From assembly GCA_027493955.1 (NCBI GenBank), contig JAOSJT010000001.1, positions 3,960,586 through 4,024,585 of the forward strand: a stretch of 64,000 bases of DNA, given 5' to 3'. Below are positions 9,362 to 45,868 of the stretch, piece by piece. The notes under the pieces are model-generated. The model ran no database searches, had not been told where the DNA came from, and saw nothing but the letters and a program-made list of their open reading frames with translations. Made by a program: the position numbers and the translations under genes. Every line of letters starts with the position of its first letter. Within the stretch, counting starts at the first letter, position 1. This DNA is from Bacteroidia bacterium. Its GTDB lineage: Bacteria > Bacteroidota > Ignavibacteria > SZUA-365.

Positions 9362-10303
9362 ATGTCCCGTACAGCGCTCATTGCCATCGGCGGGAACTCG
9401 CTCATCCGCGCGGGTGAGCGCGGCACCATTGACGAGCAGCTCGCCAACGCGCACGCCACGGCGCGTTGTCTTGCCGAAATGGTGCAGCGCGGCTGGCGCA
9501 TCGTTATAACGCACGGCAACGGTCCCCAGGTGGGGGCCGCCCTGCTGCGTTCCGAACGCGCCGCCGGTGAAGTCTACACCCATCCCCTTGACGTCTGCGT
9601 CGCCACCACGCAAAGCGAAATCGGCTACCTGCTCCAGCGCGCGCTGGAGTACGAGCTTCGGCAGCTGGGCCTCACCACACCGGTGCTGACCGTGCTGACG
9701 CAGGTGCGCGTAGACGAACACGATCCCGCTTTCGCCCATCCCACCAAGCCTATCGGACCCTTCTATTCGAAGAAGGAAGCCGAGGACCGGCAGCGGCGTC
9801 TCGGCTGGAATATCGTCGAGGATTCGGCCCGCGGCTATCGCCGCGTCGTGCCCTCGCCCGAACCGAAAGAGGTGTTCGAACAGCACATCATCCGTAAACT
9901 GCTCGACGACGGCATGATTGTCATCGCCTGCGGTGGTGGCGGTATTCCCGTCATCGAGCGGGCGAATCACGAAGTGATCGGCTCCGAGGCCGTGATAGAC
10001 AAGGATCGCGCATCGGCCCTGCTCGCCTCGGAACTGGGTGTGGACCTCTTCATCATCAGCACTGATGCGCGGCAGGTGTTTGTGGACTTCAAGAAACCCA
10101 CGCAGCGGGGTCTCGACACAGCCAACGTATCCGAACTGCGGCAGCTCGCCGGCGAGGGGCAGTTCCCGGCCGGGAGCATGGGACCGAAAGTGGAGTCCGC
10201 CATCCGCTTCATCGAAAGCGGGGGCCGTGAAGTCATCATCACGTCATTTGAATATCTCACCAGCGCGCTCGACGGCAACGACGGCACGCGCATTGTTCCA
10301 TAA
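9362..10303 (+). CDS. arcC: carbamate kinase
   Basis: 313 aa. The IAIGGN N-terminus and overall amino-acid-kinase fold signature match carbamate kinase. Confidence 0.85.
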   Translation: MSRTALIAIGGNSLIRAGERGTIDEQLANAHATARCLAEMVQRGWRIVITHGNGPQVGAALLRSERAAGEVYTHPLDVCVATTQSEIGYLLQRALEYELRQLGLTTPVLTVLTQVRVDEHDPAFAHPTKPIGPFYSKKEAEDRQRRLGWNIVEDSARGYRRVVPSPEPKEVFEQHIIRKLLDDGMIVIACGGGGIPVIERANHEVIGSEAVIDKDRASALLASELGVDLFIISTDARQVFVDFKKPTQRGLDTANVSELRQLAGEGQFPAGSMGPKVESAIRFIESGGREVIITSFEYLTSALDGNDGTRIVP

Positions 10304-10324
10304 CCGGCACAGGAAGGACAGAGC

Positions 10325-11242
10325 ATGAAACTCCGCCATCTCGTCGAATCTCAGCAGTTCACCGTGCCTCTGCTGATGGAGTTGTTCGACCGTACGCGCA
10401 TGATGGAAAAGGTGCTGGCCCGCGGCGGCACCCGCGATTACGCACAGTACATCATGGGGACGCTGTTCTATAAGCCGAGCACGCGTACGCGTTTCTCCTT
10501 CGAAGCCGCCATGCACCGTCTCGGCGGCCGTGTGCTCTCCACCGAGCACGCAATGGAGTTCTCCTCCGAAATCGAAGGAGAAAAAATCGAGGATACCATC
10601 CGAATCATCGGCAATTATTGCGATGTTATCGTGTTGCGCCACCATGAGGAGGGAGGCGCCACACGCGCGGCAAGCGTGTCCACGATTCCCGTCATCAATG
10701 CCGGAGACGGTGCGGGCGGGCAGCACCCCACACAGGCGTTGCTCGATCTCTACACCATTTACAACGAATGCAAAACACTGGACGGTCTGTCCGTCGCGCT
10801 CATCGGTGCCCTCGATCACGGGCGCACCGCCCGCTCGCTCGCGTATCTGCTCGGGAAGTTTGACCGTACGAAGCTGTATTTCATCGCTCCCGAGGAAATG
10901 CAGATCGGCCGGGACATCCTCGACTATCTCGACAAGCACGACGTCGCGTATGAATTGGCCTCCACCACGAAGGGCATACTGAAAAGCATGGATGTCGTTT
11001 ATCAGACACGCATCGACAAAGACCGTCTGCGCAAGCGCGATATCGATTTGTCGCATTACAACATCGACAGTACGGTTCTGCGCGAATTGAAAAAGGACGC
11101 CATCATCATGCATCCCCTGCCGCGCTCGGTGGAAATTGACCATGCGGTGGACGACGATCCGCGCGCGGCGTATTTCCGCCAGACGCGCAACGGTCTCACC
11201 GTTCGCATGGCGCTGCTCACCATGCTTCTCGAACAAGAATAA
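10325..11242 (+). CDS. pyrB: aspartate carbamoyltransferase catalytic subunit
   Basis: 305 aa with STRTRFSFE, HPTQ and HPLPR motifs. These are the ATCase set, not the OTCase set (which has HCLP). Confidence 0.8.
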   Translation: MKLRHLVESQQFTVPLLMELFDRTRMMEKVLARGGTRDYAQYIMGTLFYKPSTRTRFSFEAAMHRLGGRVLSTEHAMEFSSEIEGEKIEDTIRIIGNYCDVIVLRHHEEGGATRAASVSTIPVINAGDGAGGQHPTQALLDLYTIYNECKTLDGLSVALIGALDHGRTARSLAYLLGKFDRTKLYFIAPEEMQIGRDILDYLDKHDVAYELASTTKGILKSMDVVYQTRIDKDRLRKRDIDLSHYNIDSTVLRELKKDAIIMHPLPRSVEIDHAVDDDPRAAYFRQTRNGLTVRMALLTMLLEQE

Positions 11243-19657: not shown

Positions 19658-19775
19658 GCGCCTGAGCGAGTTTAGGCGGTCCCTGAGCGAGTTTCAGCGG
19701 TCCCTGAGCGAGTTTCAGCGGTCCCTGAGCGCAGTCGAGGGGCAGCCTCCGAGTGAAGGGCGGTTTCTGAGCGTG
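19658..19775. repeat. about 3.5 tandem copies of a 21-bp unit (GTCCCTGAGCGAGTTTCAGCG) plus a related GAAGGGCGGTTTCTGAGCGTG copy
   Basis: Read directly from the sequence. It belongs to a dispersed GGTCCCTGAGCG motif family also present at 26453-26511 and 28874-28918. Confidence 0.8.
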
Positions 19776-20000: not shown

Positions 20001-21512
20001 ATGAACGACAAAACAACAATCCCGAAACGGCTGCGGGCGCTACTGCCGCATAAGCGCTTCCATTGCCTGCGGACCATGCTCGCATTGCTCCTGCTGCTCT
20101 GCGCCACGAAGGCGTACCCGCAGGTGCAATGGACGGAAGTGAAATTGCCAAAATCCCCGAATATGACTTCATTTTCTAGTATGGTGTGGGCAGACTCGCT
20201 CCATGGATATCTCTTCGGGCGTTTCCACGGCGTAATACTAAAAACCTCCGATGGCGGTGCCAGATGGTTGCTTGATTTCCTACCACCAGGACCGGATTCA
20301 CTTATCTATCGTTCCGGGTTCGAATTCAGACACGCCGATTTCAAAGGCAGGGATTTCGGCGTTGTGACATTCAACAAATATGGCGGGCGGGATTCGTTGC
20401 TCTTCTATACAACGGACGGTGGCGCTACCTGGAGTTACCATCTGATCAAGATGAATTCTCCGTTTGAAAACACAATGAATCCTCCCGGTTCTCAATTGCG
20501 TGTTGACGCAAACCGTGCCCTGTTCCTGTATTACACGCGCCAATACGACGACGGTGTGATAGCCAATGTGATAACTCGCAGCGATGACTACGGCGCGACG
20601 TGGCGTGAACTCGGAGGCGACACCGTATCCGGAAGCGGCGACCTCATTAACTATTACGTCATGCTGGACTCGCTGACGCATTACCGCTTCACTACTTTGT
20701 GGGACATCGGTGACTTCAGTCGCTCCGAGGCGCGGGTCACAACCGATGGCAGGCGCAACTGGTCCGGTTTCCCCGAGTTGCATTATCTGTGGTTTATTGA
20801 TAATTCGGAAATTCAGGAAGTCCGGATGATCAATGATACCTCGGTATCGATTAGGCTTAGGGATCCCAACGGAAATGGCGGCCCATGCATTGTCAGCCGG
20901 GATATCCGCAATCACCTCACGCGTGAGGCATGGTATAACTATGGGCATCCGTATACATGGCCGAACGGGTGGAAGCAACCGGTATACGATTTGCTGTATC
21001 ACGACGGTACGTACATCGCCAGAATAACGGATTCCGTCATGGTCTTCCGGGAAAATCCACCGGAGCGCGCACAAAAATTGTACGTACCCGGAGGATATTA
21101 CGGCTCGTTTTACCTGCAACCGGGCGGTCGCGTGTGGCATTTGAATTGGGGAAAGCTCTGGGTCCTGGACTACCGGACCTTGGGCTCTGCTGTTACTCTC
21201 CCCGCGCCATCGCACGACATCGAGGGCTTCGAGTGCTATCCACAACCGTTTTCAAGCAGCTTGGGCGTGCTTACACTGCGCTTGAACAGCAAGCAGCGCC
21301 ATGCAGAGGTTGAACTCGCTGTATACGATTCGAATGGTAGGCGGTTGTATGATAGAGAAATCGGAGACATCGCGCCTGGCATGAGTGATGTGCATGTGGA
21401 TATGTCAGCAGCATCGTTCTCACAGTTACCCTCTAACGCGGTGCTGTTTATCGAATTACGAACTCAAAATCAACGCTTCTACACGAAATCACTGTTTCTC
21501 AAGAACAAGTAG
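20001..21512 (+). CDS. T9SS-secreted protein with BNR / Ycf48-like repeats
   Basis: Signal peptide (probable start ATG 20076, MLALLLLLCATKAYPQ). Repeats of the form S/TxDGGxxW (TSDGGARW, TTDGGATW, SDDYGATW). C-terminal Por sorting domain (ECYPQPFSSSLGVLTLRL...VYDSNGRRLY...). Confidence 0.7.
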   Translation: MNDKTTIPKRLRALLPHKRFHCLRTMLALLLLLCATKAYPQVQWTEVKLPKSPNMTSFSSMVWADSLHGYLFGRFHGVILKTSDGGARWLLDFLPPGPDSLIYRSGFEFRHADFKGRDFGVVTFNKYGGRDSLLFYTTDGGATWSYHLIKMNSPFENTMNPPGSQLRVDANRALFLYYTRQYDDGVIANVITRSDDYGATWRELGGDTVSGSGDLINYYVMLDSLTHYRFTTLWDIGDFSRSEARVTTDGRRNWSGFPELHYLWFIDNSEIQEVRMINDTSVSIRLRDPNGNGGPCIVSRDIRNHLTREAWYNYGHPYTWPNGWKQPVYDLLYHDGTYIARITDSVMVFRENPPERAQKLYVPGGYYGSFYLQPGGRVWHLNWGKLWVLDYRTLGSAVTLPAPSHDIEGFECYPQPFSSSLGVLTLRLNSKQRHAEVELAVYDSNGRRLYDREIGDIAPGMSDVHVDMSAASFSQLPSNAVLFIELRTQNQRFYTKSLFLKNK

Positions 21513-21524
21513 GAAAGGTGTGAC

Positions 21525-24500
21525 ATGAAGAATACGAAGTACCTGTTCACGGCATGTCTCTTCGTCATGATGACTGGAAACGCAATCGCACAGACCCCTG
21601 AGTTAAACGATTACTGGCAGAATTTCGTCTCAAGCGGGGCGAATATTCTCTCAGGCTACACTCCCGATCCTAATTCAGTAAATCTCGGCAGTAATATCGC
21701 AGGGTACCACTTGGGCCGCTTTGGCTTGCATGGTCTCATCTGGGGGCACCTGACCTGGGTGCGCTCGCCGGAGTATGCTGATCCGGCGACAACGGATGGG
21801 CTGCGCAGGTAGTATCTGCGAATTGCTAATGGTAAGATCGATACGATGACGAGCGCTCCGGTCTTCGAGGATATCAGTGGCTGCGGCGCTATCAGCTACA
21901 AAGGACCGACGCATGAGGCGATCACGAGATATCATGACGGGTTCTGGCATGATGGCGACATGATCGGTGGCGGGTATAAGGGCTGGGGCATGAAACGAAG
22001 CATGGATGCCATGGTGGCTCTACCCAGATATATGCCCCGCATACTCAAGGACGAGTGGTATCGCATGAAAATCCGCTGCGAAAACAGTCCGCCGCCGAGT
22101 ATGTTCACAACAATCACCATCTGGCTGGCTCCTGGCGGCTCGCCCTTCCCGAGTACGCCGCATTATATGCAGACGTATCGGGGGCTGGAAAAGGGAACAG
22201 AAGAGAATGCTCCGATATTACCTGTCACAGACGACGGATCGCTGCACATTGACCCTGTCAGCGGACTGCTGCAACCGCAGCGCGTATGGTACAGGAAAGG
22301 TACTGTGGCGATACTGTCCTGCTTTTCCAACATATCCGTGAAGAATCTGGCCGTGTTCAGAGGTACGGGCGGCAGCAGAACGCCGTTCTACAGTTTGCAG
22401 GTGCATGGTGCGGATTACACTGCCGATATCAACGATTTCTATGAACACTGGATTCGTGTCGGCGATGAAGATGTAAACGGCAGCGACCGCGACGTGTGGT
22501 CTGTGACTCTTGACAATGGTGAATACGTGATTCATACCACGGCAGCCAATGGGTATCCGATCGCTATGCCGGGTGCGCTGTATCGGCAGGATAACGAAGG
22601 CGTGTATGCTTCGGCATATCTGAAGTACAAGGACGAAGTTGACTTTACGAGCTTCAATCTGGAGGATTGTGAAATCGAATACGATTTGCGCATCGGCAAG
22701 CGCAACACCGGTTATGCTTAATCGGGCATGGCGTTTCATTTCACGAATCGAACAGGAGATCTCCATACCTACATCGACGGCAGAGAGCCAGACCTCGGCG
22801 TTGAGGGTGGTGTATTTGAAACCCCGGATGAAGTGACGGAAGGCGATGAATCCGTGGCCCTTCATAGCAGTGCCCAGTCCCTTGTGCGTTTTGGTCATTA
22901 CTACCGGCATTTGTACCGCTATCTCGCCGCAAATCTGCGTCCCGACAGAATGGAGGTGACACACCATCGCGAGAGCAAGGAGAAAAAAAATGATGCGGGG
23001 CAATTCGTAGAAAACAGCGGAGAGCTGTTCTATGGCGGCACTCCGTGGGATGCGTCCTTCAGCATTGATCCCGACTCACTCGCCTACTCCGAAGGGCATA
23101 ACTACGAAGGAGAAATGGCGGGAGCGATATTGCGCTTCAGCCGCTATATACTGGATCCGACTACACCGGCGGAGCTGAGTACGCATTTCGCCACGAATGC
23201 GAGCACCTACATCACGGCCATGAACGACAATTTGCTGGCGAAATGGATCAATGCCGCGCAACTGTATACCGGCAGCAGTGACCTGTTTTATGGCGCCAGT
23301 CAGAGCAACTGCTTGCTCGGCATCGGCAATCTCAACGACGGTCATATTTGGCGATACACGAAATCCCGTACAGGGAGTATGTTCCTGCATGCTCGCGGCT
23401 TATCCGGCATCACTCCAGCGTACTCTAATTTCTCCGATGCGTATTGCGATTACTATCACACGAAAATTGCCGATGCCTTCGTTCCCCAACAATACGATGG
23501 CAGAGACACCTGGCAATGGTATGACGGCGCCGGGTGGTGGGAAACGTATGACAACGGGATTATGGATGCAGCTCACTATGCGGGCGAGGTACGGCATGTG
23601 TTCATGGCGGACGAGTATGGCTTCCCCGAAATGGGCGACATCGGGTCGAAGATAGCAGACAATTTCGTGAATGCTATGTGGAACAGAGTTCTCCCCAATC
23701 CTCCGGAGAACCTGGTTGATCTGTACGAGTTCCGCCATCCCAATGAAAAGCACAAACTTTCTGACAAAGGAAACAGTTACGGACTCACGGACTACCCGTT
23801 GCTCGCAAAATACAATTTTACGGTGTGGGAAATTCTTAATGATTTCTACGCCCGTAAACCTATGCACCTGCGGAATTACGCACCAGCCTCCGCACAGATG
23901 GCCTATGCCGTGCGCTACGGTACGCCGCGCAATCTTCGCGCCGAGCCGCTCACCGTGTAGTCCTGCAATGATGGCCTCGTCTCGAACCTGCTTATCCGCT
24001 GGGATCCACCGTCGGATTATCCCTGTGGCTATCTTGATGGTCCATCGGGCGGCATCCGCCATGCGGGCACGCGCCTGCGCTGGTATCACATCGATCGCAA
24101 ACTCGCAAGCGATGCGGACTGGTCCGCCGCCGTGCGCTGGAGCATAGACATACCCACATTCCAGCAAGCCCACAAGTATCCCTTCCTGCTTGATCCCACT
24201 GCCGAGGTGGGGCAGAGTTATCAGTATCGTGTATGTACGCAAGACGCCTCAACGGGCATCACGAATCTTTCGGAATACTCCCCAACCCTCGACGTCACCT
24301 ATCCCGCCTATGCCGGTTACTATGACAGCAGAAATGACTTGCTCGAAATCGACCTCTTCCCCTGGCCGACGATACTGAGCGGCGAAACGCGCACGCTCGC
24401 CAAAGGCATTTACTATGCGCCGTTCAACATCCTGGTGGAAGAGGGCGGCACGCTCGTGCTCGATCCCGCCGTGCAGATCATTTTCGGCGATTTGTGCGAG

Positions 24501-26285
24501 CTGGAAGTGAAGGGCTCGTTCGTCGTCAACGGCAATCCGGACTGCGAGAGGGTAACGCTCACCGGTGTGGCCCCTCAATCGGGAGGCGGCGCCTCGGGCA
24601 GTTGGTGGGGTGTGTCGCTCTTTCCCTCCGCGACGCATGACATCGATTACGCCATCATCGAGAACGGAATCAACAATCTGGTGCTCTTCGATCCGGGCGG
24701 CGTTGTGAGCAACACCGCATTGCGCTACGCCTCACAACATGGCGTCATCATCAAAAACGCCGACGATTCCGGTCCCGCCGCACAATTGCTCGAGCAATGC
24801 GACATTCACGAAAACGGCTGGACCAATGTGTTTATGACACACGGAAGTCTCGATGCGGGAGGCCAACCGATACCGATCTACCCCATCATCCGCAACTCCA
24901 CCATCCGCCAGGCGCTCACCGGCGATGGTATACTTGTGGCCGATCAGGCATTTCCTCTCATTGAATACTGCGACATACACTCGAACGCGACGAATGGCAT
25001 TCGCTGCGAGCAAGTGCGCGGAGACGTTTTCGCCAACTCGAACGTCACTCTGTTGCACAGCAACATACACGATCACGAAAGCGGAGCGGGCGTATTCCTC
25101 CGAGGCAGCAATGGCCTGTTGCGCTTCAACGAGCTGTATGGAAATCTGCATGGCGTGTCGGCCAACGATGCGTCCATACTTCATGGTGCGCTGTCCTACG
25201 GCTCTGTCGGCGGTAATTCGCTGCATGACAATGATATTCACCTGCGAATAGAGAATTGTACCGGTATCTACATTGGGTTCCACTTCAGTTTGCTCGGCGA
25301 CAGTCGTGGCCACGGCAATACCTTTGTCGCGCCGGGCAGTTACCACATACAATCGGTAAATTCGGCGGGCTTCGCGCAGTGCAACAGTTACAATCCGTAC
25401 GACCCCTACGCCAATCCACCGCATTTCGACATCCCCGGTTTCCCGATGACGCCGGACATTGAAGTGTTGCCGCTCGGACCATGCGTCCCTCCCGGAGGTG
25501 GTACGCAAACGATATTGCCTAAAACCGTTGCATCCAACGAGCGTGCATTCACGCTCGGCACTTTGCCGATGTTGTTCGAAAAACACGACGATGCCTCGGT
25601 TCTGAAACTCCTGCAGACGTACGAGCTCGATCCGATATGCCGGCATGGCATACTCAGTTGGCTGGGCACCTACGCCGCGAGCGGCTCGCACAAGGATCGC
25701 TACCTCGCCATACTCGACTCACTGTCGCAATCCTGGCAGGGCGGCATGTTGGCGCAGGTACGCCATGCCGGAGTATCCGCCTTCGTCTCGCGCGGCGGCA
25801 TGCAGATGTCGCCGGGTTACGCTTCCTCAATATCCGACTCGGCATTGCACTCCTACATCACACTGAAAGCCGCAGTGACAAATTCGAAGGAGCTTTCTCC
25901 GATGGAGGTTCTCCAGGCGCAGATCCGGAACAACGATACCGTCAACAAAACGATGTCGCCGCTAACACCCGCAGCGGGAAACGGCGTCCCGGTCCCCAGA
26001 ATTTCCGTCAATGCCGGGCCGCCTCAGCCGGAGTATTCCGGACTGCTCGCATACCCCAATCCGGCGAGCGGTATGCTCAATCTCCGGGTGACAGATGCTC
26101 GTCGTTATGAGCAATGCAGGGTCACAGACTTGCTCGGACGAGTCGTCATGAAGGTAGATTTGCGTACGGTTACGGTTGAGGAAGGTTTGTACCGACTCGA
26201 CCTCTCCACGCTCCCCCGCAACCGCTATCTCGTCACGTTGTTCGGCGAAGATGGCACGGCGTGTAAAACGGTGGTGTTGCGCTGA
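21525..26285 (+). pseudogene. composite T9SS-secreted parallel beta-helix protein (about 1587 codons) interrupted by three in-frame stops: TAG 21810-21812, TAA 22719-22721, TAG 23958-23960
   Basis: ORFs 21525..21812, 21846..22721, 22728..23960 and 24132..26285 share one frame, and the gaps translate without further stops (the 23961-24131 gap reads ...SNLLIRWDPPSDYP...RWSID..., Fn3-like). Only the first piece has a signal peptide (MKNTKYLFTACLFVMMTGNAIAQ). Only the last has a T9SS CTD (AYPNPASGMLNLRV...). The middle contains pectate-lyase-like beta-helix repeats. Confidence 0.5.
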
Positions 26286-26452: not shown

Positions 26453-26511
26453 CGATGGTCCCTGAGCGAGGTCTCGGCTGCGCTCGACCATCGTCGAAGG
26501 GACGCTCAGCT
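26453..26511. repeat. REP-like imperfect hairpin carrying the GGTCCCTGAGCG motif
   Basis: CGATGGTC-CCTGAGCG...CGCTC-GACCATCG inverted repeat, followed by the GAAGGGACGCTCAG reverse copy of the motif. Confidence 0.6.
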
Positions 26512-26543
26512 ACTGACGAATGGCAATCACAGTCGGAGGGGAA

Positions 26544-27749
26544 CTATCGGACGACTGTGAACGGGTAGGTGGAGAGTGTGTTGTTGATACTGATGCACGC
26601 GATGTAATACCCGACCGGGAAGGTCGACACGAGAACACTACGCGTCAGAACAGCATCGTAATACTGAAGTTCCTCCGCATGAAATATTCGTCCGGTCAGA
26701 TCTCTGATAGATAATTGGATGTGCGCGGGCTTTGTATACGTAATCTCGACATTGACGAAGTCTTTTGGCGAGCTTGGGTAGACCGATAGCGATTGAAGTT
26801 GCTTTGGGTTCTCAACCAGGTTCGGTGTACAGCACGGAGAATTAATCTTGTTGTATCTGTTGTTGCCGGTAAATTCGTTCGGACAATAGAGCTTCCTGAG
26901 CGCACAGATATTGCGACAAGAAAGTTTGGTGGCTTGCGGGATATTTGCCTTCAGAATGTTTCTATACATTGGGTCGCTTTTCGAGTCTGGATACGTTGTG
27001 CTATTCTCACAAGGATTCCCAATTGCGTCGGGATTATCGTTTGGGTCACTTGTTTCGCCCACGCCATATCCATTAATGTGGCCGAGCCCTAAGCAGTGAA
27101 GGATTTCATGCAGCAGGACTGATTTGATCGAAACGCACGGTTTACCTCATATTGAGGGATTGTTGCATTCCGGTTGCCAGCACCACTCATTATTTCGCTT
27201 TCGATCTTGTGACAAATTCAACCACACGGAGGGGACGTCAGTAGAGGGATTTCTCCCCTCCATTTGTCCCGGAACCTCTCTCCCATCAATACCAGGCTTA
27301 TCAAAAGCTTGGGCAAATGTGGTGCCAAAAATTTCAATCGGCTCCGCTCCGTTCAGATTTTCGCAACTTTTTGAAATCGTGAGTCCTCCTGTTGTCGGGC
27401 ACACGCAATCATGAAGTTCATTTGTAATATCCTGCAGCGCCGAATTCACAGTCGCCTTGAAGTCGAAATTTAAACAAGTGATTCCTTTAATGGTTTCAGG
27501 GAGAAACTGCCACTCTCTGACACAAATGTTTCTGGCGACATGTTGGTAGGGTAGCACAAGCGGACCGGCGACAGGGGTTGTGCGGCCACACCAGAAAACA
27601 TTATCAGAATACTCAAGGTCTTCTACCTTCTCTTTCCCTCGGACGTAGTATGAATGAATCCAGGTTGGATCGCAGCCCGTTTGCGCGTACGTAACACTGA
27701 CGGGAGTAACGAGCAGAATGACGAGAATGATGATTCGTTTTGTAGTCAT
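26544..27749 (-). pseudogene. T9SS-secreted metzincin-type zinc metalloprotease interrupted by one in-frame TGA (27147-27149, minus strand)
   Basis: ORFs 27147..27782 (signal peptide MTTKRIIILVILLVTPVSVTYAQ) and 26544..27062 (T9SS CTD) are in the same frame. The 84-nt gap translates without stops as GKPCVSIKSVLLHEILHCLGLGHINGYG, which contains the HExxHxxGxxH metzincin zinc site. Confidence 0.5.
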
Positions 27750-27759
27750 GGCTGTAATC

Positions 27760-28698
27760 CTATTGGAGTCTGAGCATACCATTTCGCAACGTGCTGATGC
27801 AGTCCTCCAGATTTATCTGCGCACCACTGCGGAGAAGGAGATCGTTATCGAAGACCACATTTCCTACCACTGGCAATGCTCCCCTGACTCTTAAGTGATA
27901 GGAGGTATAGCTTGTTTGCGTACTCACGACGAATAAATCGAGAAAAACAATATATTGCTTCCCGACCTCCATCTTGCCTGGACCGGATTCGTAATACGTA
28001 AAACCCTTCGGGGCATAGTATCTGAATATACTGTCCGGCGGGCAGACCCAAGAAACGGGGATGCAGTTGCCGCTGCCTTCACCGATCGGATTTCCACAGA
28101 AATCGCTGTTCTGCAATCCACCAAAAATAGAAGTGATTATGGATATATCAGCGCAGTAGATTTCATTGAGATGCGGCGAACCAAAATATCTGGTCGTTGA
28201 GTCAATATGAACGCTTCTCGATTCAACGTTCACAAGATACACACCGCCGATATTGAAGTCTCTGAGCGTATCATAAAGATTTCTGGGAGATACGCGGTCG
28301 TAAAATGCATTTTGCAGGCTGCCGCCCAGATCCATATACGTCGATTTGTAGGCTGCGGGTTGTCGCCAATTTGACTCGTTTTCAGTGTGACGGAAGCGCA
28401 AATAATCGTAGTCCAGAGCTCGCAGCAGGGCTCTCATGCCGAGCGCGATGGAATCTTCACTGAGACTGTTGGCGAAGCTGTACAGCTCCTCCGGTGAATA
28501 AAGCTTACAGAGCGTATCCGCAACGATATACGTCGCGACAATGTCGAGCGGCATTTGGATCGAGTAACTTGGCCAGTTCGTAATTACCGCCGCATTCAGT
28601 ATCTCGCAGGTGCTGTCGCTTTTCATAAACAGCGGCTGGGAGTGCGAAGCTTGGGATATGCCGGCGGCAAGCAACACGAGTAAAACAGTGATACGCAT
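27760..28698 (-). CDS. secreted hypothetical protein
   Basis: ORF 27760..28743 with signal peptide from MRITVLLVLLAAGISQA. No recognisable domain. Confidence 0.45.
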   Translation of the reverse strand: MRITVLLVLLAAGISQASHSQPLFMKSDSTCEILNAAVITNWPSYSIQMPLDIVATYIVADTLCKLYSPEELYSFANSLSEDSIALGMRALLRALDYDYLRFRHTENESNWRQPAAYKSTYMDLGGSLQNAFYDRVSPRNLYDTLRDFNIGGVYLVNVESRSVHIDSTTRYFGSPHLNEIYCADISIITSIFGGLQNSDFCGNPIGEGSGNCIPVSWVCPPDSIFRYYAPKGFTYYESGPGKMEVGKQYIVFLDLFVVSTQTSYTSYHLRVRGALPVVGNVVFDNDLLLRSGAQINLEDCISTLRNGMLRLQ

Positions 28699-28873
28699 AT
28701 GATTATCCTTATAAAAGTACGGTGCAAAATACTCGCAGGGCATACAAAAGTCAAGCCAACTACCATATTGGGGTCGCAGGCAGGTCGGAATGGTTGCATG
28801 TGGGCTGTGTGAGTAGAAATGGGATCAGTATCAACCGCAAACGAGAATGCAATGAACGCCAAGAAAGCATGGT

Positions 28874-28918
28874 CGAAGGGCGGTCCCTGAGCGTGGCTTC
28901 GACGGTCCCCGAGTCAGG
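28874..28918. repeat. third copy of the GAAGGGCGGTCCCTGAGCGTG dispersed motif, partly duplicated (GACGGTCCCCGAGTCAGG)
   Basis: Matches the 19755-19775 copy at 19 of 21 positions. Confidence 0.7.
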
Positions 28919-29004: not shown

Positions 29005-29068
29005 CTTCGGCCGAGGCCCACCCCCATCATGTAGAGACGTTGCATGCAACGTCTCTACATGGCCGAAG
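29005..29068. promoter_or_regulatory. perfect 28-bp palindrome (GTAGAGACGTTGCATGCAACGTCTCTAC) nested in an outer CTTCGGCC/GGCCGAAG inverted repeat, about 165 bp upstream of a cargo gene start
   Basis: Read directly from the sequence. Candidate operator or 5' UTR hairpin. Confidence 0.6.
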
Positions 29069-30883: not shown

Positions 30884-31074
30884 AGCGATTTGTAAAGGCC
30901 AGCGCCTCATGCTGGACGTTCGCCACGACGTCCCGCTTTGCTAGTGTTACTGTGATGGAAGCGCCCCTCCACCGTAGACGCCGATACCGCTCTACGCCTC
31001 GTTGAGTGCACAGACCGGCAGAAAACGCAGAACAGGAGATCGGACCCGCCAGGCGTGTCATCCCTCTGTTCTTT

Positions 31075-31132
31075 CTGTTTTTTCTGCGGTCCACCCCTCT
31101 CTTTTCTGCGCCTTCTGTTTTTTCTGCGTTCC
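31075..31132. repeat. two 18-bp CT-rich direct repeats (CTGTTTTTTCTGCGGTCC / CTGTTTTTTCTGCGTTCC) 40 bp apart, upstream of flotillin
   Basis: Read directly from the sequence. Confidence 0.6.
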
Positions 31133-31307
31133 CGTGTTCTGTGGTCCCGCATTTGTTCGTCTGACAAAGAACCGGTACGTTTGTATGTAATGGCGAGTAC
31201 TTCGCCTGATTCTCCCTATCCCAAGATACAGGGCGTTTCTTCGCTCCGGCATCCATTGCCCGAAAACAAAGTCGATACGCAATATCCACGTTTCTCTGGA
31301 GGCTTTC

Positions 31308-32693
31308 ATGGCTACCTGGCTCATCGTCATCGTCGTTCTCGTTCTTGTCGCCGGCTTCATCTTCTGGATGACGCGGCAGTACAGGAAGGCCGGTCCCAAC
31401 GAGGTGCTGGTCATCTCCGGCCGGCGCAGCGTCATTACGACGCCCGACGGCGCAAAGCAGGAAATTGGCTATAAATTCCGCATCGGTGGCGGTTCCTTCG
31501 TCAATCCTTTCAGCGAGCAAGCGGATACGCTGCCCATCGAGGTTGTCAGCGTCAACATCCGCACCCCGGAAGTGCTGTCCAAGGACGGCATCCCCATACT
31601 TTCCGAATCTTCCGCACAGGTCAAAATCGATTCCAACGAGTACTCGATTTTCCTCGCAACGCAAAACTTCATGGGTGGCGGCACCGACGCGGTGCGCGAA
31701 GTGGCCCAGACGGTGCTCGAAGGCAAGGTGCGCGAAAGCATCGGCAGCATGACGGTGGAGGAGCTGTATCAGAATCGCCAGGAATTCGCCAACCGCGTGT
31801 ACAACGCCGTGGTGCGTGATCTCGGCAGCATGGGTCTCGTCATGATTTCTTTCGCGCTGAAGGACGTCACCGATACGCAGGGCTATCTCGAAGCGCTCAG
31901 CAAGCCGCGCATCGCGGCCGCCAAGCGCGACGCCATCGTCAAGCAGGCCGAGTACGACCGCGACGCGGAAATTTTTGCCGCGCAGGCGAAAAAGGAAGCC
32001 GATATCGCCAAGCTTGTCGCCGCCGCCGAAGTGGCCGGCCGCAACTGGCGTAACGAAGAACTCAAGGCAAAATCCCAAATCGAAGTCAGTAAAGTGCGCG
32101 CCGCCGCCGATACTTCCTACGAGCTCGAACGCCACAAACTTGCGCAGGAAGTGAAGCGCGAGGAATACAAGGTCAAGTTCATCGAGACCGAAGAGCAAGC
32201 CAAGGTGCAGACCGAGGAAATCAAGCGCAAAGAAAAGGAACTCGAAGCCAACGTCATCAAGCCGGCCGAAGCCCGCAAAGTGCAGATTCAGACCGAAGCC
32301 GAGGCCGAAAGCTTCCGCGCCCTCCGTGAAGCGGAAACGAAAGCCACTGTCCGCGCGCGCGAAAATGAACTCGACGCGGAGCGCATCAAAATGCTCGGCA
32401 AGTCCGAAGCCGACGCCATGACCGAAAAAGCCAAGGCCTACGGCGAGTACAATCAGACCGCACACTATCAGATGATTCTGGACATCCTGCCCGAGCTCAC
32501 GAAAAATATCGCCGAGCCGCTCTCGCGTATCGACAAGATCACGATGATCAGCGGCGCCGACGGCAAGCTCGGCACCTCGCAGATCACCGGCCAGGTGGCG
32601 GACATTCTCGCCAACGTGCCCGAGGTCGTCAAGTCCCTCACGGGCGTCGATCTCGCGAAATACCTCAGGGAAAAACTCGGCGGCGATGCGTAA
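31308..32693 (+). CDS. flotillin-like SPFH/band-7 protein (YqiK-type)
   Basis: 461 aa with an N-terminal TM helix, an SPFH domain, then a long EA-rich coiled-coil (flotillin repeats). Confidence 0.85.
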   Translation: MATWLIVIVVLVLVAGFIFWMTRQYRKAGPNEVLVISGRRSVITTPDGAKQEIGYKFRIGGGSFVNPFSEQADTLPIEVVSVNIRTPEVLSKDGIPILSESSAQVKIDSNEYSIFLATQNFMGGGTDAVREVAQTVLEGKVRESIGSMTVEELYQNRQEFANRVYNAVVRDLGSMGLVMISFALKDVTDTQGYLEALSKPRIAAAKRDAIVKQAEYDRDAEIFAAQAKKEADIAKLVAAAEVAGRNWRNEELKAKSQIEVSKVRAAADTSYELERHKLAQEVKREEYKVKFIETEEQAKVQTEEIKRKEKELEANVIKPAEARKVQIQTEAEAESFRALREAETKATVRARENELDAERIKMLGKSEADAMTEKAKAYGEYNQTAHYQMILDILPELTKNIAEPLSRIDKITMISGADGKLGTSQITGQVADILANVPEVVKSLTGVDLAKYLREKLGGDA

Positions 32694-32797
32694 TGCATGG
32701 CAACCGGACTCCCATGTCTCAACGAAACCGCCGCAAGAACCACGCACGCAGCGCGGTGGCCGCGGCATTCAAGTCATAGACAGCATGAGGTAGCACA

Positions 32798-35149
32798 GTG
32801 ACCGCAGACAGAATACATTTGATCGGGTCCTCGCCCACGCTCAAGGTCGCCGCGAAAGCCAAGGCGCTGAAAGAGCAGGGTGTGGACGTCATAGACTTCA
32901 GCGTGGGCGAGCCGGACTTCGGCACGCCCGCGCATATCAAGGATGCCGCCAAGCGCGCCATCGACGAAAACTTCACCAAGTACACCGCCAACGAGGGCAT
33001 TCTCCCGCTGCGCAAGGCCATCGCCGCGCATCTGAAAGAGGAATGCAATCTCGTGTACGATCCCGGGACGGAAATCATCGTCAGCAACGGCGCGAAGCAC
33101 TCCATCTACAACGCCATGATGGCCATCGTCAACGACGGCGACGAAGTCATCATCCCCGCGCCGTACTGGGTGTCGTATCCCGAAATGGTGAAGCTCGCCA
33201 ACGGCAAGCCGGTGATCGTACAGACCCGCGAGGAAGACGGCTTCCGCCTGACGCCGGATCAGCTCCGCGAACACATCAACGCGAGTACGCGCGCGGTGTT
33301 TCTCAACAATCCTTCCAATCCCACGGGCTCGGGCTATTCGCGCGAAGAACTCGAGGCGCTGGCCGACGTCATCGTCGAGGAAGACATCTACGTCATTGCC
33401 GACGAAATTTACGGCAAGCTGATGTACGACAGCCTGAAGTTCACCCGCTTTGCATCGCTCGGACCCGAGGTGTGGAAACGCACCATCACCATAGACGGCG
33501 TGTCCAAGGCCTACAGCATGACGGGCTGGCGCATCGGCTGGGCCGCCGCACCGAAGGACATCGTTTCGGCCATGGCCAAGGTGCAGAGCCACGCCACGTC
33601 CAATCCCTCGTCCATATCGCAACGTGCGGCGCTGGAAGCGTACAAGGGACCGCAGTACGAAATTTCCAAAATGGCGGCTGAGTTCGAGAAGCGCCGCAAT
33701 TTCGTGGTGTACAAGCTGCAATCCATCCCCGGCGTTTCCTGTCCCATGCCCCGCGGCGCGTTCTACGCCTTCCCGAACGTGAAGTCCTTTTATGATAAGG
33801 AGTTCGAAGGTGTACCCATCCGCAACAGCTACGGCATGGCATATTACCTGCTCAAGCATGCGAATGTGGCCATTGTGCCGGGCGACGCCTTCGGTTCGGA
33901 CGACTTCATCCGAATCAGCTATGCAACATCCATGTCCAACTTGCAGGACGGCATGGCCCGCATTGCCGAGGCTCTCTCGAAGCTCAAGCCCGCGCCCAAG
34001 CGCAAGCTCATCAAGCTCGCGAATACGGAAACCGTGGTGAAGCATATCGTGCAGTCCGAAGACGAAGTGCGCATCGACAAGCGCAACGCCCTCGTGGCCG
34101 AAGCGGAAGCCGAGCTGAGCTACAGCAACTACTTCGAATGGAATGCCAATATCAACGGACTCATCGTGCAGCTCCGCACCAACGTGGGGCATCTGTACGA
34201 TTTCTGGGTGGAAAACTGGTATCCCGCGCAGCTCGAAGCAGACATCGAACCGCATGGCGTGATTTACGCTGTGGACGGTGTGGCGGGGCGCGAATCGCAT
34301 GCCTTCTACAACAGCGACACCAAAACCGGCATCCTGTTCAACTGCGACCATTACGGATCGCTGCGCTCGCTCGCTCTCGGACTCGTCAGCGACGTTGCCG
34401 AGCGGCATAGCGACGTGCACGCCATTCGCGCGCTGTCCATGGACATCAACGGCGAGGGCGTGCTGTTTATCGGACCATCCGGTACGAAAAAGACGGAGCT
34501 GTTCTGGCGCCTCTTCTCCGAACGCGATGAAACCGCACTGCACAGCTACGACTATCTGTTTGTGCGCTATGGCGGCGGCTATGCGGCCGCGGACAATCCC
34601 GAGCGCAAGATGTACATGCCCACCAATACCGTCGAGTCCTGGGACGGCCTGGCAAAGCTTTTCGACAAGAGCAAATGCGAGAACGTGACTACGCGTGTCG
34701 AGGACTGCCGTAACGACAAGCACAAAGTGAACGACAGTTGCCGCCTCAACAGCGGCGCGCCGTACAGCTACTCCTGCGCGAAGAAAAGCCATGCCATGCT
34801 CGATCCCTACTGGCTGGGGGGCATGTCGCGTCACGTCAAGCGCATCGATATACGGCATGTGTTCATTCTCCGCAACGATCCCGTGTCGGCCGCAGTGCAG
34901 AAGCTCGATGTCGAGGATGCGCTGCATCAGATTGAGGCCGGCTATCCGGCGGGTACGTCCGGAGGCAAGCAGGAGCAGTGGTACAATCCGCATCTGCTGC
35001 TGCGCGGGCAGGATCGTTTCGATTTGCAGAAAACTTTCTTTGGCAAACTGTTCCGTTCGGCCGCGGTGTATCAGCTCAACGCCGGTACAGCCACGGTGAC
35101 GGAAATGGCGCAGCATGTTTTGAAAAACGTCGGCGTAAGCGGAAGGTGA
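32798..35149 (+). CDS. fusion protein: class-I aspartate aminotransferase (residues 1-400) plus a PEP-carboxykinase(ATP)-like C-terminal domain (residues 400-783) with altered active-site motifs
   Basis: Complete AspAT ([13 protein letters not shown] PLP-lysine region). The C-terminal domain aligns to the PckA nucleotide-binding half: HYGSLRSLA vs [23 protein letters not shown] vs [23 protein letters not shown] vs [24 protein letters not shown] vs IFLTADAFGVLPPVSKL. Confidence 0.7.
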   Translation: [783 protein letters not shown]

Positions 35150-43475: not shown

Positions 43476-43724
43476 ATGCAAACCACTATTCAGAAATGGG
43501 GCAACAGTCAGGGACTCCGCATCGGTAAAGAGTTGCTGAAGGAAGCGGAGCTGGAAGTCGGTGATGCTGTGGAGATCAGCGTTCGCGAGGGAATTATTCT
43601 CATCGCACCGCAGCGGCAGATTCGGGGGAAATATAAACTCGAGGATCTGATCGCACGCATGCCGAAATCACGGAGGAGCCGCGAAACGGATTGGGGCGCA
43701 CCAGTCGGCAAGGAGGTGTGGTAA
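43476..43724 (+). CDS. mazE: MazE/PemI-type antitoxin (AbrB/SpoVT fold)
   Basis: MQTTIQKWGNSQGLRIGKELL...GDAVEISVREGIILIAP. Stop overlaps the next ATG (TAATG). Confidence 0.8.
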   Translation: MQTTIQKWGNSQGLRIGKELLKEAELEVGDAVEISVREGIILIAPQRQIRGKYKLEDLIARMPKSRRSRETDWGAPVGKEVW

Positions 43725-44056
43725 TGACGCGTCCGCCTCGTCAGGGCGACATCGTATCGCTGTCCTTCGATCCGCAAGCCGGACATGAACAGCAGGGACG
43801 CCGTCCCGCATTGGTTGTCAGCAAGGACCTCTTCAATGAAAGCACAGGGATGATCTTCGCCTGTCCCATTACCAACACTCAGCGGGGCTATCCGTTTCAT
43901 GTCGCCCTGCCTGCAAGCGGAAAGGTTACGGGCTTCGTCATGGCGGAGCAAATGAAATCCCTAGACTGGCGCGCCCGCAAAGCGAGGTTGCTTGAACGTG
44001 CGGATAAGGACACGCTGAACGAAGTGCTTGCTATACTCGAAGCCTGCTTATATTGA
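43724..44056 (+). CDS. mazF: MazF/PemK-type endoribonuclease toxin
   Basis: RQGDIVSLSFDPQAGHEQQGRRPALVVS and ACPITN motifs typical of MazF/ChpB. Confidence 0.8.
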   Translation: MTRPPRQGDIVSLSFDPQAGHEQQGRRPALVVSKDLFNESTGMIFACPITNTQRGYPFHVALPASGKVTGFVMAEQMKSLDWRARKARLLERADKDTLNEVLAILEACLY

Positions 44057-44080
44057 CCGTACCATAACAGGGAGCTGTCC

Positions 44081-45868
44081 GTGCTGCCAAAGGGTCTTTT
44101 CGGGATTGTATCATCGGTGGCGATTGATTACGACGAGCTGCGCAGGTCGCTCAATGCCTTGCTCGACGAGGATGAGTATTACGAGTCCCAGTCGAATACC
44201 GCCTGCACGGGCATCGTGGGCGTGATCTGCTCCAGCCGCTATCCGTATGTGAAATGCATTTCCACTTCGCCTGATCACTCGCAGATCGGAGCAATCGACG
44301 GAAGCAGTTTCCATGGCTCGCGTCTGGACACGAAGCCGCATCGCTTGCTGGATAGAGATCTGGCCCTGCCGGATGAAGCGAATGGCATGTTCGCGGCCGC
44401 GGCGTGGAACGGTGAGCGTCTGAAACTTCTCGTCGATCCCCTCGCGAGCACCCCGCTGTACTATCGATGGGATGAGCGTTGTTTCGCCTTTTCTTCCTCG
44501 CTGGCGACATTGTTGGCCATCGACATTTTTGCCGCGCCCGCGCATTCCGAGCGGAGCCTCGCACAGTATCTCTGCTGGGGCAAGGTCCTCGGTGGAGGGA
44601 CGCTCTATCATGGTGTTCACAAAATGCAGGCGGCGGAGTTTGTAGATTTCGCCTTCAGCGATCACAATCCCACGAAAAAGAAATACTGGCGACCACGGAT
44701 CCAGACCAACGGTGACGGGGCTGCGCTCAACCGCACAGTGGACGCGTTCGCCGCAAGTGTGGACAGCGTGATGCGAACGCTTCCGGCACCCATTGCCGTA
44801 TCCCTGAGCGGCGGGTATGATTCGAGAACAATCCTGGCGGTACTACTCGCCGGAAAAAAACCGTTCGTCTCCGTCACGCATGGCATGGCGGACGGCTTCG
44901 ATACACGCATAGCGCAATCGCTGGCGAAGGAACATGGGCTCGACCATCGTATGCTGTGGATAGACGGAGCATTCTCGGAGTCGTATCCGCTGTACGCGAA
45001 GGAATGCGTGCTTCGCTCGAATGGTATGATGTCACTGGAAAACGCGCATCTGCCATTTGTGTACGCCGCGCATACGGCGTATGCACATTCGATCGTGGAT
45101 GGGATCAGCACATTTCTGGAAAGAAATTTCGGCTTGCGTCGCAGGGCGAAGGACGGATCATCGAAGGACGAGTTCTTCAACGCGGTGTGGGACTATCTGA
45201 TTGGCGACCGCGAGAGAACCGTAGCGAAGCTCGAAAACGGTGAGAAAGTCATCCAGATCGCGAAGGAAGATTTGTACAATCTGCTGCCCGCGTGCGTCGA
45301 CCTTTCCGATCCCGAAGCCCTCGCGGACACATTCTATCTTGAGCAAATCATCGCGAATCATGCAACGGACGGGGTCTGTCTTCAGCAGCACTACAATCGC
45401 TTCATGACGCCGTACTACGAACTCGGGTACATCAACGAACTCTCGAAACTGTCGGCGCGAAAACGTTCCGCGAACATACCGCAACGCGCGATTATGAAGC
45501 GGTTCACACCATCGCTGCGGTGGCGAGCAAGAAGCTATTCGGATATTCGCACTCTTCCAGTCTCGCAGTTCCACATGCAGTTATTGCCGGTCGCGTTTGA
45601 CCGATTACTGCACAGAATCACCCCCTTGATTCGGCGACTGTGGCGCAGGTCTTCGCTTGATTATGCCCAGTATCGCAGCGCGGACCTGCTTCTCAGCACC
45701 GCCCTACGTGAGATCTCGGCACAGAGGTCTTCACAATTGGCGCCTTTGCTTGAGGACCAGGCGGTCACGGATGACCCTGAATTGCTTCGCTCCCTGCTCC
45801 CACTACTGATGTTCAACGGAGCCCTTGGCGGAATACCTCCGGTACGAGTCCGCTCGATCCGTCCATGA
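44081..45868 (+). CDS. asparagine synthetase (AsnB)-family protein lacking the N-terminal catalytic Cys
   Basis: 595 aa with the SLSGGYDSR PP-loop. The N-terminus is MLPKGLFGIV instead of MCG. Confidence 0.65.
   Translation: MLPKGLFGIVSSVAIDYDELRRSLNALLDEDEYYESQSNTACTGIVGVICSSRYPYVKCISTSPDHSQIGAIDGSSFHGSRLDTKPHRLLDRDLALPDEANGMFAAAAWNGERLKLLVDPLASTPLYYRWDERCFAFSSSLATLLAIDIFAAPAHSERSLAQYLCWGKVLGGGTLYHGVHKMQAAEFVDFAFSDHNPTKKKYWRPRIQTNGDGAALNRTVDAFAASVDSVMRTLPAPIAVSLSGGYDSRTILAVLLAGKKPFVSVTHGMADGFDTRIAQSLAKEHGLDHRMLWIDGAFSESYPLYAKECVLRSNGMMSLENAHLPFVYAAHTAYAHSIVDGISTFLERNFGLRRRAKDGSSKDEFFNAVWDYLIGDRERTVAKLENGEKVIQIAKEDLYNLLPACVDLSDPEALADTFYLEQIIANHATDGVCLQQHYNRFMTPYYELGYINELSKLSARKRSANIPQRAIMKRFTPSLRWRARSYSDIRTLPVSQFHMQLLPVAFDRLLHRITPLIRRLWRRSSLDYAQYRSADLLLSTALREISAQRSSQLAPLLEDQAVTDDPELLRSLLPLLMFNGALGGIPPVRVRSIRP

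What the first reader, a model, noticed from the sequence alone, without database searches (positions are those of the whole stretch)
26544..27749. Metzincin protease gene whose zinc-binding motif sits between two ORFs separated by an in-frame TGA
The upstream ORF has the signal peptide and the downstream ORF has the T9SS CTD. The 28 codons between them are in frame and encode HEILHCLGLGH, the HExxHxxGxxH metzincin site. Neither ORF alone makes sense. This is a second adjacent cargo gene inactivated solely by a nonsense codon, or a candidate for read-through or selenocysteine. No SECIS is visible.
Basis: seen in the sequence. Interest (0 to 1): 0.6.

Follow-up and report, generated by a model that had tools for sequence, protein, structure and literature searches.

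The report
Protease gene broken by one nonsense mutation
A secreted zinc-protease gene in this Bacteroidia genome is cut in two by a recent single-base change (GGA glycine to TGA stop); a closely related strain has the gene intact, so this is an ordinary young pseudogene, not selenocysteine or recoding.

Summary
One minus-strand reading frame (27749..26544) runs signal peptide, 200 codons, TGA (27149..27147), HEILHCLGLGH, T9SS-type C-terminal domain.

The stop is not an assembly error. Short-read assemblies of at least 10 sequencing runs are 100% identical to the window here.

A 401-aa intact version exists in another metagenome (P0021, contig L005). It is 97.8% identical in DNA with no gaps and has GGA (Gly) where the window has TGA, a single G-to-T change. 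More distant homologs are single 380-411 aa proteins with A/S/G/K/N at that site, never Cys.

No SECIS-like hairpin follows the TGA. TGA ends conserved genes of the window at their natural C-termini, so the genetic code is standard.

The neighbouring 1586-codon beta-helix cargo gene carries three more in-frame stops (TAG, TAA, TAG). One of them is GAA in a relative.

Both genes lie in cassette-like units that differ between strains. The protease cassette is about 10 times less diverged than the flanking housekeeping genes, so the stop is very young.

Verdict: a recent strain-specific nonsense allele in a rare, uncharacterised metzincin-like T9SS cargo family. Low interest.

The parts
26544..27749 (-). 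Whole interrupted gene: metzincin-like T9SS cargo, 401 codons including the in-frame TGA, final stop TAG 26546..26544.
   Evidence: The intact 401-aa ortholog P0021 aligns end to end without gaps.
27681..27749 (-). N-terminal Sec-type signal peptide MTTKRIIILVILLVTPVSVTYAQ.
   Evidence: Read from the sequence. No signal-peptide predictor was available. Homologs have similar hydrophobic N-termini.
27150..27749 (-). Upstream fragment, codons 1-200. It equals NCBI protein MCZ7557757.1 (locus tag M5R41_15270, Bacteroidia bacterium MAG).
27147..27149 (-). In-frame TGA, codon 201. The ortholog has GGA (Gly), a G-to-T change on the coding strand at window position 27149.
   Evidence: The TGA is present in 100%-identical Logan contigs from at least 10 runs.
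27078..27110 (-). Zinc-binding motif HEILHCLGLGH (HExxHxxGxxH), codons 214-224.
   Evidence: H214, E215, H218, G221 and H224 are invariant in 10 family members.
26967..26969 (-). Candidate Met-turn methionine (Met261 in SDPMY).
   Evidence: Alignment: DPMY in four of ten members, other residues (L, I) at that column in some. Assignment is inferred.
26547..26783 (-). Divergent T9SS type A C-terminal sorting domain (residues 323-401).
   Evidence: sub-threshold; profile against solved C-terminal domains; mirolase C-terminal domain, TM 0.69.
27760..28698 (-). Upstream partner gene D (312 aa, signal peptide, no known family). It ends 10 nt before the protease ATG, so it is probably co-transcribed.
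   Evidence: (the start was corrected because L005 has a stop in the longer ORF).
21525..26285 (+). Adjacent 1586-codon beta-helix T9SS cargo gene with three in-frame stops: TAG 21810-21812, TAA 22719-22721, TAG 23958-23960.
   Evidence: Single-protein homologs P0018 (1385 aa) and P0019 (1548 aa) span all three stops. L004 has GAA at 22719.
26457..26468 (+). Copy of the 12-nt motif GGTCCCTGAGCG at the border between the two cassettes. Other copies are at 19678, 19699, 19720 and 28882.

Best explanation
The gene is a very recent, strain-specific pseudogene (a null allele). It once encoded a secreted, cysteine-rich metzincin-like zinc protease with an N-terminal signal peptide and a C-terminal T9SS sorting domain. 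A single G-to-T transversion changed codon 201 from GGA (Gly) to TGA, 13 codons upstream of the HExxHxxGxxH zinc site. Translation therefore ends after 200 residues. That product has the signal peptide but neither the zinc site nor the sorting domain. No in-frame start codon lies between the TGA and the zinc site, so re-initiation cannot rescue an active enzyme. The gene sits in a strain-variable island of T9SS cargo cassettes, where the neighbouring giant cargo gene has also been knocked out, by three nonsense substitutions. Shown: the substitution, its reproducibility, the intact ortholog, the one-gene architecture of homologs, and standard use of TGA as a stop. Inferred: loss of function, protease activity of the ancestral protein, and export by T9SS.
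For: - **Intact ortholog.** P0021 (401 aa) lies on contig L005. The segment is 97.76% identical to window 28913..26457, with 55 mismatches and 0 gaps. Codon 201 is GGA there and TGA here.
- **Reproducibility.** Logan contigs from SRR25626499 (the same contig in 9 samples) and SRR25580095 are 100.000% identical to the window over 9339 and 4664 bases, including all four stops. NCBI annotates the 200-aa fragment as MCZ7557757.1.
- **No repaired allele.** No version of the window's own sequence with S, G, R, L, W or C at codon 201 exists among about 15 billion proteins.
- **One-gene architecture.** Remote homologs P0002, P0004 and P0005-P0007 are single 380-411 aa proteins spanning the site. The aligned residue is A/S/G/K/N, in a loop with indels.
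- **Substitution pattern.** Between the window and L005 there are 4 synonymous and 0 non-synonymous differences upstream of the stop, and 4 synonymous and 5 non-synonymous downstream.
- **The stop is young.** dS of the cassette is 0.03-0.06, against 0.33-0.50 for flanking housekeeping genes.
- **The neighbour is also broken.** It has TAG, TAA and TAG in frame. TAA 22719 is GAA in L004 and E in three homologs. Its dN/dS against L004 is 0.18, so its stops are also recent.
- **Standard code.** TGA ends QueA, IspD and the ADP-forming acetyl-CoA synthetase-like gene at the ends of their Pfam profiles, and all housekeeping genes are intact.
- **No rescue by re-initiation.** The first start codon after the TGA is GTG 27062, downstream of the zinc motif.
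Against: - No expression or proteomic data exist, so low-level natural read-through of UGA cannot be excluded.
- The upstream/downstream contrast in non-synonymous changes rests on 13 substitutions and is not significant (hypergeometric p about 0.1). The C-terminal half may simply be less constrained.
- Four nonsense codons and no frameshift in two adjacent genes is a somewhat unusual spectrum for neutral decay.
- The 10 runs that reproduce the TGA may all sample one clonal population, so they exclude assembly error but not within-population polymorphism.
Confidence: 0.9

Rival explanations
1. The TGA encodes selenocysteine, making the protein a selenoprotein.
For: There is an in-frame TGA in an otherwise open frame, in a cysteine-rich secreted protein, with Cys four residues downstream.
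Against: - The ortholog has Gly (GGA), and nine other homologs have A/S/G/K/N. None has Cys or a stop.
- The 111-nt region does not fold better than shuffles (z = -1.83).
- Using the published bacterial SECIS criteria as I recall them (loop 16-37 nt from the UGA, G in the first two loop bases), the only hairpin that fits is a 4-bp AU/GU stem. The stable hairpin has its loop 42 nt away and no G in the loop.
- Rfam finds no RNA family match here.
- No selA, selB, selD or tRNA-Sec gene is in the window.
- The neighbouring gene is interrupted by TAG and TAA, which Sec cannot explain.
Confidence: 0.01
2. Programmed or tolerated read-through of UGA (for example by tRNA-Trp) yields a small amount of full-length active protease, so the allele is hypomorphic or regulated rather than null.
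For: From general knowledge, UGA is the leakiest stop codon in bacteria. The frame downstream is still fully open for 200 codons, and the zinc motif and C-terminal domain are intact.
Against: - No conserved structure or context exists, because the stop itself is not conserved: the only close relative has a sense codon.
- The downstream frame being open is expected for a stop as young as dS 0.03 or less.
- Non-synonymous changes are seen only downstream of the stop.
- The neighbouring gene has TAA and TAG stops, which are poorly read through.
Confidence: 0.05
3. The TGA is a sequencing or assembly error, or a minor variant, and the real genome has an intact gene.
For: The source is a metagenome-assembled genome (a 5.24 Mb contig). 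Single-base errors do occur in such assemblies.
Against: - Independent assemblies of at least 10 sequencing runs give the same base and 100% identity over up to 9.3 kb.
- The separate ORF fragments of 200, 172 and 141 aa are on record from several contigs.
- No repaired allele of this strain is on record.
Confidence: 0.03
4. The organism uses an altered genetic code in which TGA is a sense codon (code 25, TGA = Gly, would match the ortholog's Gly).
For: The ortholog has Gly at the site.
Against: - Any GGA-to-TGA change gives this coincidence.
- TGA terminates conserved genes at their natural ends, and no conserved gene in 64 kb contains an in-frame TGA.
- The source is a Bacteroidia MAG with 55-60% G+C.
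- TAA and TAG also interrupt the neighbouring gene.
Confidence: 0.005

Closest known systems
Bacterial pseudogenes made by a single nonsense substitution (strain-specific null alleles of accessory or secreted proteins)
   Same: There is one base change relative to an intact ortholog, the frame is otherwise open, and the gene lies in a strain-variable accessory region next to other disrupted genes.
   Different: Nothing essential differs. The only mild oddity is four nonsense codons and no frameshift across two adjacent genes.
T9SS-secreted metzincins of Bacteroidota, such as karilysin (M10) and mirolysin (M43) of Tannerella forsythia (from my own knowledge of the literature; mirolase is not one of them, it is a subtilisin-like serine protease, and is cited only for its C-terminal domain fold)
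   Same: The architecture matches: signal peptide, catalytic domain with HExxHxxGxxH, C-terminal T9SS sorting domain. The C-terminal domain model superposes on the mirolase C-terminal domain (TM 0.69).
   Different: - There is no family-level sequence match. Pfam M10 scores 14.5 bits against a cut-off of 24, and only over the motif.
- The protein has many conserved cysteines.
- The family is very rare: 16 hits at E <= 1e-3 among 1.84 billion representatives, 8 of which (P0002-P0008 and P0010) cover the catalytic motif; P0001 is the window's own N-terminal fragment, P0009 aligns across the motif but its listed stretch starts at residue 97, and P0011-P0016 match only the C-terminal domain.
OgpA and Amuc_1438 O-glycopeptidases of Akkermansia muciniphila (PDB 6z2p, 8df2)
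   Same: They are the best whole-chain Foldseek matches (E 2e-5 to 3e-4). From my own knowledge, both are metzincin-type enzymes.
   Different: TM is only 0.23-0.25, rmsd is 14-15 Å and identity is 10%, on a model with mean pLDDT 62.7. This is not evidence of membership.
Bacterial selenoproteins (for example formate dehydrogenase FdhF)
   Same: An in-frame UGA inside a coding frame.
   Different: There is no SECIS, no Cys or Sec homologs, and the ortholog has Gly.

Membership tests
Metzincin clan of zinc endopeptidases | Extended zinc-binding motif HExxHxxGxxH/D | tested here: met
   HEILHCLGLGH at codons 214-224. H, E, H, G and H are invariant in 10 family members.
Metzincin clan of zinc endopeptidases | Conserved Met-turn downstream of the motif | tested here: inconclusive
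   SDPMY lies 37 residues after the third His. Met is present in most members of the alignment, but some have L or I at that column.
Metzincin clan of zinc endopeptidases | Metzincin catalytic fold | tested here: inconclusive
   The AlphaFold model has mean pLDDT 62.7 and pTM 0.61. The best PDB matches are metzincin-type O-glycopeptidases, but with TM about 0.24.
Peptidase M10 (matrixin, Pfam PF00413) | Score at or above Pfam's gathering threshold | tested here: not met
   14.5 bits against a cut-off of 24, residues 203-226 only. PDB profile hits to serralysins and MMPs have E 0.015-0.6.
T9SS type A cargo | C-terminal sorting domain (PF18962 / TIGR04183) | tested here: inconclusive
   The sequence scores are below the curated cut-offs: 17 against 27 bits, and 17.9 against 23 bits. 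The family profile does hit solved T9SS C-terminal domains (E 6e-5 and 1.3e-4), and the fold matches the mirolase C-terminal domain (TM 0.69, probability 1.00).
T9SS type A cargo | N-terminal Sec signal peptide | tested here: met
   By inspection only: a basic N-terminus, a hydrophobic core and AQ at residues 22-23.
T9SS type A cargo | T9SS machinery in the genome | not testable with these tools
   Only 64 kb is available. At least four other proteins in the window pass the PF18962 threshold, so the organism very probably has a T9SS.
Bacterial selenoprotein | SECIS hairpin immediately 3' of the UGA | tested here: not met
   z = -1.83 against shuffles. No qualifying stable hairpin was found. 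Rfam found nothing.
Bacterial selenoprotein | Homologs with Cys or Sec at the aligned position | tested here: not met
   Gly in the ortholog and A/S/G/K/N in nine homologs.
Bacterial selenoprotein | selA, selB, selC and selD in the genome | not testable with these tools
   None in the window. The rest of the genome was not available.
Nonsense pseudogene | Intact ortholog with a sense codon one substitution away | tested here: met
   GGA in L005 against TGA in the window, within 2457 bases of gap-free 97.8% identity.
Nonsense pseudogene | The stop is real in the organism, not an artefact | tested here: met
   100% identical contigs come from independent assemblies of at least 10 runs.
Nonsense pseudogene | Relaxed constraint downstream of the stop | tested here: inconclusive
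   0 non-synonymous and 4 synonymous changes upstream, against 5 non-synonymous and 4 synonymous downstream. Too few changes for significance.

The most novel reading that the evidence does not exclude
The four premature stops (TGA, TAG, TAA, TAG) with no frameshift, confined to two adjacent T9SS cargo genes, may not be random decay. These genes lie in cassette-like units bordered by the repeated motif GGTCCCTGAGCG. One possibility is recent selection for switching off these secreted proteins in the sampled habitat, perhaps reversible by cassette exchange with related strains. Another is a G-to-T-biased mutational process: both polarised cases, GGA to TGA and GAA to TAA, are G-to-T. A third is that low-level UGA read-through keeps a trickle of active protease.
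Probability: 0.08. Interest if true: 0.4.

Novelty: new member of a known kind. Interest (0 to 1): 0.12.

Why it matters
It matters little for recoding biology. It removes a false candidate for selenocysteine or read-through, and it is a clean example of how to settle such a case: find the near-identical intact allele.

It has two minor values. First, it documents a rare, unannotated, cysteine-rich metzincin-like family of T9SS cargo: eight full or partial relatives covering the catalytic motif among 1.84 billion representative proteins, and no Pfam or NCBIfam model.

Second, it shows strain-level turnover of T9SS cargo genes in an environmental Bacteroidia lineage by three routes: presence or absence of whole cassettes, recent cassette exchange, and point-mutation knock-outs.

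For annotation, the 200-aa NCBI 'hypothetical protein' MCZ7557757.1 is better labelled as a fragment of a pseudogene.

Tried and rejected
- **Word-indexed protein search.** The read-through protein found nothing, because the relatives are too remote or were not indexed. The exhaustive HMMER search and the cluster look-up were what worked.
- **Genome and metagenome scans.** A genome-contig scan with the C-terminal half found nothing. A scan with the family alignment found only one partial locus, L003, in a Bacteroidetes MAG at 33% identity, cut off by the contig end. A metagenome-contig scan found nothing.
- **Selenocysteine.** Rejected: see the fold, the hairpin enumeration, Rfam and the homolog column.
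- **Code reassignment.** Rejected from stop usage in conserved genes.
- **Other same-frame ORF pairs in the window.** The pairs 8177-11242 and 43637-45868 were checked as possible further interrupted genes. They are ordinary separate genes: ornithine carbamoyltransferase, carbamate kinase and aspartate carbamoyltransferase in the first; a MazF-like toxin and an Asn-synthase-like gene in the second.
- **Structure prediction.** The model was of moderate quality only (pLDDT 62.7), so the fold search could not assign a metzincin subfamily.
- **Literature.** A search for the locus tag, run and contig accessions found nothing.
- **Polarising the changes.** I could not tell which lineage acquired the five C-terminal amino-acid changes, because the next homolog is only 35% identical.

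Full report
**1. The observation**

On the minus strand, a single reading frame runs from ATG 27749 to TAG 26546..26544. It encodes the following, in order:
- a typical signal peptide (MTTKRIIILVILLVTPVSVTYAQ);
- 200 sense codons in total up to the stop;
- TGA at 27149..27147;
- GKPCVSIKSVLLHEILHCLGLGH..., which contains the zinc motif;
- a C-terminal beta-sandwich domain.

The mechanical ORF list places the first possible start after the TGA at GTG 27062.

The C-terminal domain scores below the curated thresholds for the T9SS sorting domain: PF18962 gives 17 bits against 27, and TIGR04183 gives 17.9 against 23. Other evidence supports it. A profile of the family hits solved T9SS C-terminal domains (E 6e-5 and 1.3e-4). 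The predicted fold superposes on the C-terminal domain of mirolase from Tannerella forsythia (TM 0.69).

**2. Is it one gene?**

The word-indexed search found nothing. The exhaustive HMMER search of 1.84 billion representatives found 16 proteins at E <= 1e-3.
- P0001 is the window's own 200-aa N-terminal fragment.
- P0002 (398 aa, 35% identity) spans residues 8-401.
- P0004 (411 aa) spans nearly the whole protein, and P0005-P0007 (380-392 aa) cover from residue 173-189 to the C-terminus, so they also cross the stop position.

In the alignment, H214, E215, H218, G221, H224 and several cysteines are invariant. The residue aligned with the stop is A, S, G, K or N, in a loop that also has indels, and it is never Cys. 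The natural state of this family is therefore a single protein of about 400 aa.

**3. The decisive comparison**

The 90% cluster of the N-terminal fragment has four members:
- the 200-aa fragment, which is NCBI MCZ7557757.1 (locus tag M5R41_15270, 'MAG: hypothetical protein [Bacteroidia bacterium]', on a 5,237,942-base contig);
- two C-terminal fragments of 141 and 172 aa;
- P0021, a 401-aa protein from a JGI metagenome.

P0021 reads ...CNNPSIGGKPCVSI..., with Gly at the stop position. Its contig, L005 (JGI 3300076002), matches window 28913..26457 at 97.76% identity, with 55 mismatches and no gap. Codon 201 is GGA there and TGA here, one G-to-T transversion on the coding strand.

The other differences within the gene are:
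- upstream of the stop: 4 synonymous and 0 non-synonymous;
- downstream of the stop: 4 synonymous and 5 non-synonymous (R263G, N300S, N314S, S327A, L373P).

This pattern fits relaxed constraint after the stop, but the counts are too small to be significant.

**4. Not an artefact**

The exact 200-aa product is called on Logan contigs from SRR25626499 (the same contig seen in 9 samples) and from SRR25580095. Both contigs are 100.000% identical to the window, over 9339 and 4664 bases. Their gene calls show the same fragmentation of the neighbouring gene into pieces of 95, 291, 410 and 717 aa. None of the six possible single-base 'repaired' versions of the window's own protein is present among about 15 billion sequences.

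**5. Not selenocysteine, not a changed code**

- The 111 nt around the TGA do not fold better than shuffles (z = -1.83).
- I enumerated hairpins using the published bacterial SECIS criteria as I recall them. The only one that fits is a 4-bp AU/GU stem. The one stable hairpin has its loop 42 nt from the UGA and no G in the loop.
- Rfam gives only a tRNA-Pro in the whole window.
- No Sec-machinery gene is in the window.
- All housekeeping genes in the window are intact. TGA ends QueA, IspD and an ADP-forming acetyl-CoA synthetase-like protein exactly at the ends of their profiles. The code is therefore standard.

**6. The neighbourhood**

The + strand gene 21525..26285 has a signal peptide, a beta-helix region and a Por_Secre_tail domain that passes threshold. 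It carries three in-frame stops: TAG 21810, TAA 22719 and TAG 23958.

Homologs P0018 (1385 aa) and P0019 (1548 aa) are single proteins spanning all three stops. The stops align as follows:
- TAA 22719 aligns with Glu in three homologs. The 75%-identical relative on contig L004 has GAA in an otherwise identical 60-nt context.
- TAG 21810 aligns with Gln in two remote homologs. L004 has CGG there.

dN/dS between the window and L004 over 525 codons is 0.18, at dS 0.81. The gene was therefore under purifying selection until recently. Every other T9SS cargo gene examined in the window is intact.

**7. A mosaic island**

- L004 lacks window positions of about 23.6-29.0 kb, including the protease gene. 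Its giant gene is truncated and runs into the upstream region of gene E.
- L005 lacks window 19.7-26.46 kb (the BNR gene and the giant gene). It carries an ISL3 transposase and a GIY-YIG gene between gene D and gene E.
- The 12-nt motif GGTCCCTGAGCG occurs five times in the window, against 0.43 expected. All copies are at cassette borders (19678, 19699, 19720, 26457, 28882), and the motif occurs in arrays at the corresponding borders of L004 and L005. The L005 deletion joins 26457 to the 19.7 kb array.
- The gene D-protease cassette has dS 0.03-0.06 between the window and L005. The flanking aminotransferase and flotillin genes have dS 0.33-0.50, and gene E has 0.74. The cassette was exchanged between lineages recently, and the nonsense mutation is younger still.

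**8. Mechanism**

Translation stops after residue 200. The product would be exported to the periplasm by its signal peptide, but it lacks the zinc ligands and the sorting domain. No in-frame start lies between the TGA and the motif, so no active protease can be made except by rare read-through. Loss of function is inferred, not shown.

**9. Comparison with known systems, and verdict**

The phenomenon is an ordinary nonsense pseudogene. The ancestral protein resembles T9SS-exported metzincins such as karilysin in architecture only. It fails the Pfam M10 threshold. The structural model is only moderate (pLDDT 62.7), and its best whole-chain matches, OgpA and Amuc_1438, have TM about 0.24. I therefore file it as a metzincin-like member of an unannotated, rare family.

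Interest is low.

Noticed in passing
window 21525-26285 (+); stops at 21810-21812, 22719-22721, 23958-23960: The adjacent 1586-codon beta-helix T9SS cargo gene has three in-frame stops (TAG, TAA, TAG) and no frameshift. Homologs of 1385 and 1548 aa are single proteins. TAA 22719 is GAA in relative L004. dN/dS against L004 is 0.18, so the stops are recent.
   Followed up: yes
window 19678-19731, 26457-26468, 28882-28893; L005 6701-6921, 8717-8868, 11282-11293; L004 1061-1337: The 12-nt motif GGTCCCTGAGCG (partly in 21-nt tandem units) occurs only at the borders of the cargo-gene cassettes: 5 copies against 0.43 expected. It recurs in arrays at the same borders in two related contigs. The absence of window 19.7-26.46 kb from L005 joins two motif copies. 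The motif may be a recombination hotspot that defines exchangeable cassettes.
   Followed up: partly
window 26457-28913 compared with flanks 31057-34407: The gene D-protease cassette is 97.8% identical to L005 (dS 0.03-0.06). Flanking housekeeping genes are about 91% identical (dS 0.33-0.50), and gene E is 79% identical (dS 0.74). This suggests recent horizontal exchange of the cassette between diverged lineages. An ISL3 transposase sits next to it in L005.
   Followed up: partly
window 29020-29051; L005 11381-11412; L004 4959-4985: The perfect 32-nt palindrome ATGTAGAGACGTTGCATGCAACGTCTCTACAT lies upstream of gene E. It is also present near the cassette junction in L005 and at the deletion junction in L004.
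   Followed up: no
window 32789-35149 (+): The aspartate aminotransferase ORF is 786 aa. The aminotransferase match covers only residues 3-399. The C-terminal 386 residues have strong coding statistics but no Pfam family. The same long form (783 aa) is called in L005.
   Followed up: partly
window 27760-28698 (-): Gene D encodes a 312-aa secreted protein with no Pfam or NCBIfam family. It ends 10 nt before the protease start and travels with the protease in L005. It may be a partner such as an inhibitor, chaperone or substrate adaptor. The longer 327-aa ORF in the window is not real, because L005 has a stop in the extension.
   Followed up: partly
window 43637-44056 (+): A MazF/PemK-like toxin ORF (judged by sequence inspection only) lies directly upstream of, and in the same frame as, an asparagine-synthase-like gene (44057-45868). 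They are separate genes, not another interrupted one.
   Followed up: no
L004 17-922 compared with window 20648-21553: Relative L004 carries a second, 89%-identical partial copy of the BNR cargo gene upstream of the full copy, that is, a tandem duplication within the island.
   Followed up: no
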